NCBI GenBank assembly: GCA_964626205.1
Contig: CAZVED010000005.1
Span: forward strand, 31,603-95,602
Length of the DNA: 64,000 nt
Origin: an uncultured Gammaproteobacteria bacterium
GTDB taxonomy: Bacteria > Patescibacteriota > Patescibacteriia > SG8-24
Reading direction: 5' to 3'
Shown in pieces: positions 1,097-63,578 of the stretch. Below the pieces are notes generated by a model, which saw nothing but the letters and a program-made list of their open reading frames with translations, had not been told where the DNA came from and ran no database searches. Numbering within the stretch: position 1 is the stretch's first letter; each line of letters starts with the position of its first letter. Both the position numbers and the translations under genes were made by a program.

Positions 1097-1191
1097 TGCC
1101 GTCATGCTACGGCATGGAACGATGTGGGACAAGATGCGAAAACGCGATGTATCAAAAAAGTATTCATATGAAAAAACGATACCTTCTCTCC

Positions 1192-1236
1192 TGTCATTGC
1201 GAGGGTCGACGTACTCGTCGGTCCGCGGCAATGACA
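1192..1236. repeat. Palindromic element E1: TGTCATTGC-GAG-[GTCGACGTACTCGTCGG hairpin]-TCCGCG-GCAATGACA. Short member of the TGTCATTGCGAG family
   Basis: 9-bp terminal inverted repeat tgtcattgc/gcaatgaca enclosing an inner cgacg-tact-cgtcg hairpin. Shares the TGTCATTGCGAG end and the tcg-tact-cg hairpin with E3 (63485-63578). Confidence 0.55.
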
Positions 1237-1249
1237 AAATGGGTATCGT

Positions 1250-2143
1250 TTATCGTCCGGGAGCGATGTACACCGACAGGTCGAGGATGTTGATATCCGG
1301 CATGACTTCGATGCGCGTCACGGTCGGCAGCGGCGTGAACCAAGACGCCTCCACGGCACGACGTTCTCCTGCCATGAGACGGCTGATGGTGACATACTGC
1401 ACGCCAACGGCCTGCTGACCGGCGTAGGCGGTGACAAAAAACCCGGCGGAGTAGTAGCTGAAGGCCGTACGATTCACGACCGTGAACGACGCGCGCCCGA
1501 CCGACGACGCCGCGTCCACTGCTGGCGGAACAAAGACCGCGCCTTCGATGCCGATGTCGAGGCGGCGTGCGGCCCAGTCGCGGTATCCCGGAAAGACGAG
1601 ATGCGGATCGACACGTTCCCACCGCAGATTGCTGATGACGGTCCGCGCAGATGACGGACGCGCCTCCGCACGGACGCCGAGCGCATGGATGCGCTTGGTC
1701 TCTCCCGGAAGGAGGAAGCCGCGCTTCGCCGGAACGGTCATGCCGGGAGCGTCGAAGTGGTAGTCGAATGTCGCCATCCAGTTCTCGTTCGGATTCGTCG
1801 CGCGTGCGAAGAGATCGTAGCGCCCATCACCGGACGGCAGGATTGTCGCGTCCTCGAACAGGAGAGCCGTCTTGGCGCCGTACTGACGGAACGTCTCGAC
1901 CGGCACGCCGATGTGGCGGATGGTCGCGGCATCACGACGCTCCTGCACGCCGGAGACGAAGAACCAGTCGATGAACCCCCACGACGCGTACGCGAAGAGC
2001 GAGCCCGCGACGATACCGAGCAGGACGGTACCGACCTTCCTGACCAGCACCTGATGGGTCACCCACCAGTACCCCAATGACAGCTGTCCTTCATCAAGCT
2101 TTTCTCCTGTCGGATCGAATGCCATATAAAGGAAGTGTAGCAT
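1250..2143 (-). CDS. hypothetical protein with N-terminal transmembrane segment (start possibly at internal Met ~2125)
   Basis: 297-aa ORF. Hydrophobic segment VGTVLLGIVAGSLFAYASWGFIDWFFV near the N-terminus. No recognisable family. Confidence 0.45.
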   Translation of the reverse strand: MLHFLYMAFDPTGEKLDEGQLSLGYWWVTHQVLVRKVGTVLLGIVAGSLFAYASWGFIDWFFVSGVQERRDAATIRHIGVPVETFRQYGAKTALLFEDATILPSGDGRYDLFARATNPNENWMATFDYHFDAPGMTVPAKRGFLLPGETKRIHALGVRAEARPSSARTVISNLRWERVDPHLVFPGYRDWAARRLDIGIEGAVFVPPAVDAASSVGRASFTVVNRTAFSYYSAGFFVTAYAGQQAVGVQYVTISRLMAGERRAVEASWFTPLPTVTRIEVMPDINILDLSVYIAPGR

Positions 2144-36790: not shown

Positions 36791-36892
36791 AGGGGTGTCA
36801 TTGCGAGGGCCTTTAGGCCCGAAGGCCGGGCCACTATCTTTTTTCTAACGTAGCCCGGCACCCCGCCCTTAGGCGGGTCAATCCCGTTGGTA
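36791..36892. repeat. Structured element E2 of the TGTCATTGCGAG family, filling the pheS-pheT intergenic spacer
   Basis: tgtcattgcgag + gggcctttaggccc hairpin + gccgggc...gcccggc hairpin + cccgcccttaggcggg hairpin. About 24 nt (ttgcgagg-gcctttaggcc-cgaagg) nearly identical to E3. Confidence 0.55.
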
Positions 36893-63371: not shown

Positions 63372-63410
63372 AGTATAGCACAGAAATAAGCTCAGCATGC
63401 TGAGCTTATT
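63372..63410 (-). promoter_or_regulatory. TATACT -10-like hexamer plus a perfect 26-bp palindrome AATAAGCTCAGCATGCTGAGCTTATT (operator-like) upstream of the T4SS-like operon
   Basis: The minus strand reads ...aataagctcagcatgctgagcttatt-tctgtgc-TATACT-ggaaacactg-ATG (PrgI-like gene). The palindrome spans 63385-63410. Confidence 0.5.
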
Positions 63411-63484
63411 GCCGTTCAAATCCACCCATCCCAGAAAGGCGGAAAATCTTATCCACAACCGTCCAGGAAACCACGGAGCGAGCT

Positions 63485-63578
63485 GTTTTTTGCGAGGCCT
63501 TTAGGCCGAAGCAATCCCGTGCGATTTCAAGACGGGATTGCTTCGGGGGTCGAGTACGACCCCACTCGCAATGACAAA
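63485..63578. repeat. Structured element E3 of the TGTCATTGCGAG family: a four-way junction closed by TTGCGAG/CTCGCAA and ending in CTCGCAATGACA
   Basis: ttgcgag-[gcctttaggc]-c-[gaagcaatcccgt gcgatttcaag acgggattgcttc]-g-[ggggtcg agta cgacccc]-a-ctcgcaatgaca. Confidence 0.6.

What the first reader, a model, noticed from the sequence alone, without database searches (positions are those of the whole stretch)
63485..63578. Four-way-junction palindromic element with TGTCATTGCGAG / CTCGCAATGACA ends (E3, most complete member of a MITE/BOX-like family)
E3 folds as three hairpins (3-bp, 13-bp and 7-bp stems) enclosed by a 7-bp closing stem ttgcgag/ctcgcaa, giving a cloverleaf-like junction whose arm lengths are unlike a tRNA. 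Its ends and internal modules recur in E1 and E2. E1 (1192-1236) has the same tgtcattgcgag start, a tcg-tact-cg hairpin and the gcaatgaca end. E2 (36791-36892) shares 24 nt, gcgagg-gcctttaggcc-cgaagg. Terminal inverted repeats with modular, variable interiors are the hallmark of MITEs or BOX/Correia-type elements. E3 lies between a hypothetical gene and a palindromic operator plus the T4SS-like operon. All three copies sit in minus-strand transcription units at gene boundaries. I do not recognise this family from any described element.
Basis: seen in the sequence. Interest (0 to 1): 0.7.

Follow-up and report, generated by a model that had tools for sequence, protein, structure and literature searches.

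The report
REP-type palindromic repeat dimer, CGTC family
The "four-way junction" is a head-to-head pair of small hairpin repeats of the already described CGTC/TGTC-tagged REP superfamily; here it sits in a tiny Patescibacteria genome, where close relatives show it was inserted between genes, and nobody yet knows what moves these repeats.

Summary
One detail is wrong: E3's left end is TGTTTTTTGCGAG, not TGTCATTGCGAG.

The basic unit is one hairpin: Y-GTC tag, ATTGC, GA, G, variable apical hairpin, C, GAA, GCAAT, tail C-Y. E1 is a single unit. E2 is a single unit with 54 nt inserted in its 3' arm. E3 is two unlike units with their tags pointing outward.

It occurs in at least 12 bacterial phyla. 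Compensatory changes support the hairpin.

The elements are insertions. The closest relative has pheS-TGA-t-ATG-pheT where the window carries E2. Many relatives have about 10 nt where E3 lies, and one carries an independent dimer at that junction. There are no target-site duplications and no associated transposase.

Tag, AT-start stem, tail and dimer layout match the CGTC-tagged REP superfamily (Di Nocera 2013). That paper also found no dedicated transposase. The interrupted stem and variable apex do not fit its four families as the text describes them.

Verdict: a real repeat of a known kind, in a new variant and a new host group. It is not a MITE and not a dedicated RNA gene.

The parts
63484..63520 (+). 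E3 left unit, tag decayed. Layout: TGTTTT in place of TGTCA, then TTGC-GA-G (63490-63496), apical hairpin GCCTTTAGGC (63497-63506), 3' arm CGAAGCAATC (63507-63516), tail CCGT (63517-63520).
   Evidence: Sequence. CGAAGCAATC is exact at 63507. Its apical hairpin is the same module as in E2.
63521..63531 (.). E3 central spacer loop, GCGATTTCAAG.
   Evidence: Unpaired in the minimum-energy fold on both strands. Spacers vary across family members.
63532..63576 (-). E3 right unit, intact when read on the minus strand. Layout: T-GTC-ATTGC-GA-G, T, apical hairpin GGGGTCG-TACT-CGACCCC, then CGAAGCAATC and tail CCGT.
   Evidence: Exact TGTCATTGCGAG at 63565-63576 on the minus strand. Exact CGAAGCAATC at 63536-63545 on the minus strand. 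The TACT-loop apical hairpin resembles that of E1.
1192..1236 (+). E1, a single unit. Layout: TGTC-ATTGC-GA-G, apical hairpin GGTCGACG-TACT-CGTCGGTC, then the variant 3' arm CGCGGCAAT. The stem is extended to 9 bp (TGTCATTGC/GCAATGACA).
   Evidence: The variant arms CGCGGCAATC and CGTGGCAATC are common in the family.
1168..1251 (-). Outer 10-bp inverted repeat AAACGATACC (1174-1183) / GGTATCGTTT (1242-1251) enclosing E1. On the minus strand it is followed by a run of six U. Together this looks like a terminator with E1 in its loop, lying between ORF 1250-2143 and the RodA/FtsW-like gene.
   Evidence: (I1) and the fold (-38.6 kcal/mol, z = -5.9). The consensus terminator scan does not list it because the loop is too long. 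The terminator reading is inferred.
36791..36892 (+). E2, a 102-nt filler of the pheS-pheT junction. It is a single unit: tag and 5' arm TGTCATTGCGAG (36796-36807), apical hairpin GGCCTTTAGGCC (36808-36819), CGAAG (36820-36824), a 54-nt foreign two-hairpin insert (36825-36878), then CAATCCCGT (36879-36887).
   Evidence: Sequence. After the insert, 9 nt are identical to E3. The insert has no other copy in the 2.8 Mb examined. Empty site TGA-t-ATG in L247, and a 1-nt pheS/pheT gap in the P0003 contig.
63372..63415 (-). Not part of the repeat. This is an 11-bp-stem palindrome AATAAGCTCAG-CATG-CTGAGCTTATT followed by TG-n-TATACT, an extended -10-like motif, 15 nt upstream of the PrgI-like start codon.
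   Evidence: I1; -19 kcal/mol, z = -3.3. GCTATAAT or GCTATAGT is conserved at the same place in L251-L254. The consensus promoter scan finds nothing because there is no -35.

Best explanation
E3 is a head-to-head heterodimer (tags outside) of two REP-type hairpin units. The units belong to a pan-bacterial family whose architecture is that of the CGTC/TGTC-tagged REP superfamily.

Each unit is a short imperfect palindrome. It has an unpaired Y-GTC tag, a 5-bp lower stem ATTGC/GCAAT, a conserved purine internal loop (GA opposite GAA), a G-C pair, a freely variable apical hairpin, and a C-Y tail. E1 and E2 are single units.

The elements are non-coding, non-autonomous selfish DNA. They insert into very short spacers between co-directional genes, and occasionally in frame inside genes, without duplicating the target.

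Shown here:
- the anatomy of the unit;
- family membership of E1, E2 and E3;
- compensatory changes in the hairpin;
- the very wide distribution;
- insertion polymorphism, with one exact empty site;
- absence of target-site duplications;
- absence of a linked transposase in the loci examined.

Inferred:
- Movement happens as a folded single strand, handled in trans by a hairpin-recognising enzyme of the HUH/Y1 type or an unknown equivalent. The basis is that an unpaired tag plus an imperfect hairpin is the substrate form used by REP-associated and IS200/IS605 tyrosine transposases.
- Once transcribed within an operon, the copies act at most as incidental RNA structures. E1 could be part of a terminator-like hairpin. 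E2 breaks the TGA-t-ATG junction of pheS and pheT. E3 forms a -54 kcal/mol block in the 3' UTR of the gene upstream of the T4SS-like operon.
- E3 itself is probably no longer mobile, because its left tag has decayed.
For: **Family and anatomy**
- The exact 12-mer occurs 3 times in the window.
The 80 rows shown cover at least 12 phyla, including Patescibacteria.
- The flank logo bounds the unit at Y-GTC...AATC-Y.
- 234 distinct apical inserts are hairpin-prone. 33% have a closing stem of 4 bp or more, against 4% after shuffling.

**Structure**
- 32 two-sided changes keep Watson-Crick pairing within a unit and 9 do not, where 33% pairing is expected by chance. Several pair types occur at three positions.
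- In mixed dimers, 13 keep pairing within each unit while the pairing between units is broken. The reverse is seen in 6.
- The tails of the two units covary with each other in 11-18 of 67 sequences.

**Insertion**
- pheS-TGA-t-ATG-pheT in L247, whose PheS is 87% identical. The P0003 contig has a 1-nt gap.
- The spacer before the PrgI-like gene is about 10 nt in L257, L259 and L295, against 268 nt in the window. L281 carries an independent dimer of the same family there.
- L328 has dimers at two junctions of the operon that are tight in the window.
- No target-site duplication.

**Known kind**
- PMC3733652 defines CGTC/TGTC-tagged REPs by these same features and reports no associated transposase.
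- Classical CGTC-1 and CGTC-3 units co-occur in my loci, including loci from relatives of the window's organism.
- One classical unit sits at the site orthologous to E1 in L331.
Against: - No mobilising enzyme was found. There is no Y1 transposase in 2.8 Mb of element-bearing loci or in the window.
- No gene recurs between units except phage structural genes.
- Three RAYT genes from Chloroflexota and cyanobacterial plasmids are flanked by GTAG-type REPs, not by this family.
- The unit does not meet the published CGTC description of uninterrupted 8-9-bp stems and 4-5-nt loops. None of the REP-encoded peptides in that paper's Additional file 3 decodes to it.
- Near-identical cores in a dozen phyla are hard to reconcile with ordinary lineage-specific co-evolution between REPs and their transposases.
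- Only one exact empty site was obtained. A precise deletion in the relatives is formally possible, though it is less parsimonious.
- Gene context and orientation counts rest on crude ORF calls.
Confidence: 0.75

Rival explanations
1. A MITE or BOX/Correia-like element. It would be a deletion derivative of an insertion sequence, with TGTCATTGCGAG/CTCGCAATGACA as terminal inverted repeats recognised by a DDE transposase.
For: The ends are inverted repeats starting TGT...ACA. The interiors vary and the copies lie at gene boundaries.
Against: No target-site duplication of any length from 1 to 8 nt above control in 123 dimers. Single units lacking a second 'end' are common (146 of 346), and E1 and E2 are of this kind. 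The conserved core lies inside each half and forms its own hairpin with compensatory changes. No transposase with matching ends was seen in 2.8 Mb.
Confidence: 0.04
2. A selected structured RNA. The dimer or unit would be a cis-acting element in the operon transcript, such as a 3'-end stabiliser, a processing site or a terminator module, kept because of that role.
For: All three copies are inside minus-strand transcription units. The folds are very stable. E1 lies in the loop of an outer stem followed by U6. Copies are depleted between divergent genes: 22, against 170 tandem and 50 convergent. REPs in general are proposed mRNA stabilisers (PMC3733652).
Against: Single units occur in both orientations relative to the flanking genes, 34 sense and 20 antisense. 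Orthologous junctions in close relatives lack the element and are tightly coupled. E3 has no U-run after it on the transcribed strand and no terminator-like site is called. There is no Rfam match. Conservation sits in the stems and the tag rather than in unpaired positions, and copy number varies widely between genomes.
Confidence: 0.12
3. A double-stranded DNA site for a chromosomal protein, for example a gyrase- or nucleoid-protein-type site as proposed for BIMEs, or a recombination site.
For: Sequence rather than only structure is conserved across phyla. The 3' arm is interrupted repeatedly at one position, CGNNG^CAATC, which could mark a defined break-and-join point.
Against: Compensatory changes argue for pairing within one strand. 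No universal protein is known to have this specificity (own knowledge). The family is absent from many genomes, and I did not test the E. coli collection.
Confidence: 0.06
4. Three chance hairpins sharing a short motif.
For: None beyond the small copy number in the window.
Against: Three exact 12-mers against about 0.008 expected. Hundreds of copies elsewhere share the same architecture.
Confidence: 0.01

Closest known systems
CGTC-tagged REPs (Di Nocera, De Gregorio and Rocco 2013, BMC Genomics 14:522, PMC3733652). The superfamily includes Neisseria dRS3 and Rickettsia RPE-4 and RPE-6.
   Same: Shared features are the unpaired CGTC or TGTC tag at one end, a stem that begins A-T then T-A, a short tail (family consensus C-C/T-A; CCA in the paper), and mostly tags-outside (HH) dimers with 20-100-nt spacers that have complementary ends. 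Both lie between unidirectional or convergent genes and occasionally sit in frame inside genes. Neither has a linked transposase. Classical units with ATTGCCGGG-CTTGA-CCCGGCAAT share the ATTGC/GCAAT stem base.
   Different: The published families have uninterrupted 8-9-bp stems and 4-5-nt loops. This one has a 5-bp lower stem, a conserved GA/GAA internal loop, and an apical hairpin of 3 to more than 40 nt with at least 234 variants. The paper reports the superfamily in 5 phyla. Here it is in at least 12 phyla plus viral contigs. I could not read the paper's Figure 2, so whether this exact family is listed there remains open.
GTAG-type REP, REPIN and BIME elements with their RAYT transposases (E. 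coli, Pseudomonas).
   Same: Both are imperfect hairpin units of 20-40 nt with an unpaired 5' tetranucleotide, inverted doublets that can fold as one long hairpin, heterodimers of unlike units, an extragenic location and no target duplication.
   Different: The tag is Y-GTC, not GTAG. No RAYT is linked to this family. RAYT loci in Chloroflexota and cyanobacterial plasmids carry their own GTAG REPs. GTAG families are typically lineage-specific (own knowledge), whereas this core is near-identical across phyla.
MITEs such as Correia/NEMIS, RUP and BOX.
   Same: They are small, non-coding, palindromic, dispersed at gene boundaries, co-transcribed, and have modular interiors.
   Different: MITEs have transposase-derived terminal repeats and target-site duplications. 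Here there is no duplication, and the unit is a single hairpin that also occurs alone.
Small dispersed repeats (SDR) nested in cyanobacterial hairpin elements (Elhai et al. 2008, recalled from memory and not read here).
   Same: They are very small hairpin repeats found nested inside other hairpin elements.
   Different: This is a lead only. The sequences were not compared.

Membership tests
CGTC-tagged REP superfamily (PMC3733652) | Unpaired terminal tag CGTC, often changed to TGTC or CCTC | tested here: met
   TGTC is present in E1, E2 and the right unit of E3. Across 346 units, position -3 is C in 53% and T in 41%, and GTC is at least 97% conserved. The left unit of E3 has lost the tag.
CGTC-tagged REP superfamily (PMC3733652) | Stem begins with complementary A-T residues at positions 1 and 2, and the unit ends in a short unpaired tail close to CCA | tested here: met
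   The stem is ATTGC/GCAAT. After the stem the tail is C, then C or T (53% and 43%), then A or C. In E3 the tail region reads CCCGT.
CGTC-tagged REP superfamily (PMC3733652) | Uninterrupted stem of 8-9 bp with a loop of 4-5 nt | tested here: not met
   This family has a 5-bp lower stem, a GA/GAA internal loop, one G-C pair, and then an apical hairpin of variable length. The paper itself notes that bulged repeats may have escaped its detection.
CGTC-tagged REP superfamily (PMC3733652) | Mostly dimers with the tags outside (HH), spacers of 20-100 nt with complementary ends | tested here: met
   200 of 346 units have an inverted partner downstream, and the median dimer is 84 nt. E3 has this layout. 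The spacer-proximal tails covary between the two units.
CGTC-tagged REP superfamily (PMC3733652) | No flanking or dedicated transposase gene | tested here: met
   No Y1 transposase in 2.8 Mb of loci or in the window. No recurrent gene lies between units. This agrees with the paper.
REPIN/RAYT system (GTAG REPs) | GTAG tag and a RAYT gene flanked by the same REPs | tested here: not met
   The tag is Y-GTC. Three RAYT loci examined carry GTAG REPs of other sequence. No RAYT homologue lies near any copy. The RAYT content of whole carrier genomes could not be examined.
MITE (Correia, BOX or RUP type) | Terminal inverted repeats bounded by a target-site duplication, derived from an insertion sequence | tested here: not met
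   Direct repeats of 1-8 nt at the two flanks are no more frequent than in shuffled pairs of flanks. No parent insertion sequence was found.
Any Rfam RNA family, including tRNA | Match to a covariance model | tested here: not met
   No hit at E1, E2 or E3 at gathering score. The only hit at E <= 10 around E3 is a chance microRNA match at 18 bits against a cut-off of 70. There were no hits in 18 element-bearing loci.

The most novel reading that the evidence does not exclude
A REP family with no transposase of its own is still gaining copies in minimal Patescibacteria genomes and is carried on phage contigs, with the same 21-nt core in a dozen phyla. This would imply a very widespread mobilisation route that has not been identified. 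It could be a small unrecognised enzyme or a housekeeping replication or repair activity. It would act at fixed positions of the hairpin, and the recurrent break at CGNNG^CAATC would be one of them.
Probability: 0.2. Interest if true: 0.7.

Novelty: new variant of a known kind. Interest (0 to 1): 0.4.

Why it matters
**The open question.** How CGTC-type REPs spread has been unresolved since they were described, because no transposase is linked to them. This window places a member in a Patescibacteria genome with very few genes. It also gives a base-exact empty site in a relative whose PheS is 87% identical. The search space for whatever moves these repeats is therefore small. Comparing gene content with element gains across the many available Patescibacteria genomes is now a concrete test.

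**Local consequences.**
- In relatives pheS and pheT are joined as TGA-t-ATG. Here 102 structured nucleotides separate them.
- The T4SS-like operon junctions are recurrent landing sites for several kinds of small elements.

**Practical point.** These repeats create spurious small ORFs and can sit in frame inside real genes, which matters for annotating metagenome-assembled genomes.

Tried and rejected
**Literature string searches.** DNA, RNA and peptide forms of the motif gave only primer hits or nothing. The relevant paper was found only by searching for the concept CGTC/GTAG.

**Rfam.** Nothing was found in the window, around E3 at E <= 10, or in 18 element-bearing loci.

**RAYT association.**
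- E. coli RayT run by tblastn against plasmids gave 32 records. None was in Novosphingobium, although one Novosphingobium plasmid carries at least 40 copies.
- Three RAYT loci had GTAG REPs instead of this family.

**Guilt by association.** ORFs lying between neighbouring units clustered only into phage structural proteins.

**Annotated context.** The copy-rich Novosphingobium record carries no annotation in the collection, so gene context rests on my own crude ORF calls.

**Exact-protein look-ups.** Look-ups of the window's own PrgI-like and PheS proteins found no contig on record, so the rest of the source genome could not be searched.

**Other dead ends.**
- The first regex used to find dimer partners mis-registered many 3' arms. 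Mismatch-bounded searches replaced it.
- E2's 54-nt insert has no second copy.
- The consensus promoter and terminator scans call nothing at E1 or E3.

**Considered and dropped without a dedicated test.** These were integron attC sites, k-turn motifs, self-cleaving ribozymes, parS-like universal sites, and oriT or replication-origin hairpins. None fits the conserved bases or the dispersed copy pattern.

Full report
**1. The observation**

- The closing stem is TTGCGAG/CTCGCAA, 7 bp (63490-63496 with 63565-63571).
- The central stem is 15 bp and perfect (63506-63520 with 63532-63546).
- There is a small GCC-TTTA-GGC hairpin and a 7-bp GGGGTCG/CGACCCC hairpin.
- The fold is far more stable than shuffles on both strands: -55.3 and -52.2 kcal/mol, with z near -8.

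One detail of the title is wrong. Only the right end is CTCGCAATGACA. The left end reads TGTTTTTTGCGAG.

The exact 12-mer TGTCATTGCGAG occurs three times in the window, where about 0.008 would be expected. So E1, E2 and E3 are related beyond chance.

**2. Genomic setting**

The window is chromosomal DNA of a Patescibacteria (CPR) bacterium.
- It carries pheS, pheT, dnaE, a ClpB-type chaperone gene, three tRNAs and a T4SS-like operon with a PrgI-like protein and a VirB4/TraG-type ATPase.
- The nearest named PheS relatives are Parcubacteria and Uhrbacteria at 65-72% identity. The identical protein sits on a 96-kb NCBI contig.

All three copies lie between co-directional minus-strand genes.
- E1 lies between ORF 1250-2143 and a gene that starts near 1097 and runs off the window. 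I read it as RodA/FtsW-like. The gene in the same position in L333 hits Pfam FTSW_RODA_SPOVE.
- E2 fills the pheS-pheT junction.
- E3 lies 47 nt after the stop of an unnamed gene and 128 nt before the PrgI-like start.

**3. What the repeat is**

Searching public collections for the two conserved modules changed the picture.
About 8 matches are expected by chance in 596 Gb.
- The 80 titles shown include Alpha- and Gammaproteobacteria, Chloroflexota, Desulfobacterota, Bacteroidota, Ignavibacteria, Cyanobacteria and Melainabacteria, Zixibacteria, Latescibacterota, Planctomycetota, Firmicutes, Helicobacter, and Patescibacteria (Doudnabacteria and others).

From 346 copies the unit is: Y-GTC, ATTGC, GA, G, variable insert, C, GAA, GCAAT, C-Y.
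- The insert is most often CGNAG. With its neighbours this makes the GC-GNA-GC mini-hairpin.
- It can also be any of at least 234 different sequences of 3 to more than 40 nt.
- These inserts form hairpins far more often than shuffled versions do.
- Units occur alone (146) or with an inverted partner downstream (200). The median dimer is 84 nt.

On this reading:
- E1 is a single unit with the common variant 3' arm CGCGGCAAT.
- E2 is a single unit whose 3' arm is split, CGAAG / 54 nt / CAATCCCGT.
- E3 is a dimer. Its left unit shares its apical hairpin with E2. Its right unit shares its TACT-loop hairpin with E1. Two sub-lineages of this genome are therefore joined in one heterodimer.

**4. Which helices are supported**

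Within units:
- 32 two-sided changes keep Watson-Crick pairing and 9 do not, where one third would pair by chance.
- Several pair types are seen: T-A to C-G or G-C, G-C to C-G or A-T, and the closing G-C to A-T, C-G or T-A.

In dimers whose halves differ:
- 13 keep both unit hairpins while the pairing between halves is broken. The reverse is seen in 6.
- L281, L288 and L328 show ATCGC/GCGAT in one half and ATTGC/GCAAT in the other.

Between units:
- The three positions after the core and the flanking Y/R position covary, with 11-18 of 67 sequences changed on both sides.
- So the long central helix is also a family feature.

As one strand, E3 prefers the four-way fold (-54 kcal/mol) to two separate hairpins (-32 kcal/mol). 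The junction is thus a natural consequence of a tags-outside dimer of bulged units. Nothing indicates that the junction as such is selected.

**5. Evidence that the copies are insertions**

At the E2 site:
- The closest relative found (PheS 87% identical) reads ...cagttcTGAtATGaacatc... at the pheS-pheT junction.
- A second relative (80% identical) has a 1-nt gap by its gene calls.
- The window has 102 nt there, a net gain of 101 nt.

At the E3 site:
- The four-gene block (unnamed gene, PrgI-like, 231-aa gene, VirB4-like) is conserved in more than 60 related metagenome loci.
- The spacer before the PrgI-like gene is about 10 nt in L257, L259 and L295, but 268 nt in the window.
- L281 has an independent dimer of the same family exactly there, flanked by 6 and 8 nt.
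- L328 has dimers at the next two junctions, which are tight in the window.

At the E1 site:
- A 71%-identical relative carries a classical perfect-stem unit, TGTC-ATTGCCCGG-CTTGA-CCGGGCAA.

Across 123 dimers there is no target-site duplication. Symmetry extends exactly one base beyond GTC...GAC (83% complementary, 51% in controls). About 12% of dimers lie inside an outer inverted repeat of 7 bp or more, against 3% in controls. E1 is one of these. It sits in the loop of a 10-bp stem followed by U6 on the transcribed strand.

**6. What moves it**

This was not resolved.
- There is no tyrosine (Y1) transposase in 2.8 Mb of element-bearing DNA or in the window.
- No gene recurs between units apart from phage structural genes.
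- RAYT genes on Chloroflexota and cyanobacterial plasmids carry GTAG REPs of their own.
- With crude ORF calls, copies lie mainly between tandem (170) and convergent (50) genes, and less often between divergent ones (22). Single units occur in both orientations, 34 to 20. This argues against an orientation-dependent RNA function.

I infer transposition as a folded single strand by a trans-acting enzyme that recognises hairpins. The reason is that an unpaired tag next to an imperfect hairpin is the substrate form of REP-associated and IS200/IS605 tyrosine transposases (established knowledge). This step is not shown.

**7. Comparison with what is known**

Di Nocera et al. 2013 (PMC3733652) defined a superfamily of REPs tagged by CGTC, often TGTC.
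- Stems start A-T then T-A.
- Tails are close to CCA.
- Dimers with tags outside predominate.
- Units occasionally sit in frame inside genes.
- No transposase is associated.
- The superfamily was reported in five phyla and includes Neisseria dRS3 and Rickettsia RPE-4 and RPE-6.

Decoding their REP-encoded peptides gives perfect-stem units such as GTC-ATTCCCGC-GAAG-GCGGGAAT-C and GTC-ATTGCCGGG-CTTGA-CCCGGCAAT-CCA. Such units also occur in my loci, including loci from relatives of the window's organism.

The present family meets the tag, stem-start, tail, dimer and no-transposase criteria. It does not meet the criterion of an uninterrupted 8-9-bp stem with a 4-5-nt loop. None of their peptides decodes to it. 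I could not read their Figure 2. I therefore file it as a variant within that superfamily, not as a MITE and not as a new kind of element.

A search for papers combining REP or REPIN terms with Patescibacteria or Candidate Phyla Radiation listed nothing, among the 12 papers shown, that is about REPs in that group.

**8. Verdict**

The finding is real and well observed, and the element type is known.

New here:
- the bulged architecture with a hypervariable apex;
- the breadth of distribution (at least 12 phyla plus viral contigs);
- its presence and recent insertion in a Patescibacteria genome;
- the repeated interruption of the 3' arm at one position.

Interest is moderate.

Noticed in passing
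window 36820-36887; L328 (two units); L240, L127, L113: The 3' arm of the unit is repeatedly split at the same point, CGNNG^CAATC, by unrelated hairpin-forming inserts of 14-54 nt. Of 31 units lacking an adjacent CAATC, 12 have it 15-95 nt downstream. No permuted control 5-mer reaches more than 5, setting aside AATCC, which overlaps CAATCC. This could mark a defined break-and-join site. It remains unexplained.
   Followed up: partly
L328 2085-3470, compared with L329 2601-3785: The gene upstream of the PrgI-like gene reads straight through two repeat dimers in frame, giving peptides such as VIASMAKQSQ...GLAMT. The 44%-identical homologue in L329 has alignment gaps at those places. A third dimer lies inside ORF 157-1251 of L328. 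This resembles the in-frame Rickettsia RPEs.
   Followed up: partly
window 63372-63415: An 11-bp-stem palindrome lies directly upstream of a TG-n-TATACT motif, 15 nt before the PrgI-like start codon. GCTATAAT or GCTATAGT is conserved at the same place in L251-L254. It is either a terminator for the upstream gene or an operator, together with an extended -10 promoter for the T4SS-like operon.
   Followed up: partly
L252 3593-3825; L265 2734-3027: In other relatives the same junction before the PrgI-like gene is filled by clusters of a different palindromic repeat, with GTAGC...GCTAC ends, which looks like a GTAG-type REP. The junction is a hotspot for several element types.
   Followed up: no
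L263, L288 and L322, at the spacer before the PrgI-like gene (about 440-480 nt): An extra small ORF of roughly 120 aa is inserted at the same junction, flanked by short AT-rich tandem motifs. Its family was not checked.
   Followed up: no
L248 5064-5426; L249 and L250 equivalents: In PheS relatives of 72-73% identity, a 120-122-aa ORF with no Pfam hit sits between pheS and pheT and starts at the TGAtATG junction. From its sequence I read it as a hydrophobic membrane protein. The pheS-pheT junction is variable in this clade.
   Followed up: no
L331 1650-1699: At the site orthologous to E1, a relative with 71% protein identity carries a classical perfect-stem CGTC-3-type unit (TGTC-ATTGCCCGG-CTTGA-CCGGGCAA) instead of the bulged unit.
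   Followed up: partly
L127 1372-1506; L048 2697-2818; L020 30-101: Units also occur as head-to-tail tandem arrays with periods of about 50, 33 and 43 nt and pyrimidine-rich linkers.
   Followed up: no
phage records BK070053-BK070057: In the curated phage collection, the only records with units are five Helicobacter canis phage or prophage records, with 1-4 places each. By contrast, uncultured viral contigs carry many: L015 has 6 and L037 has 5.
   Followed up: no
NZ_CP017076.1 (Novosphingobium resinovorum pSA1, 1.76 Mb): One megaplasmid holds at least 40 places matching the alphaproteobacterial dimer consensus. It would make a good test bed for a census, but the record has no annotation in the collection.
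   Followed up: no
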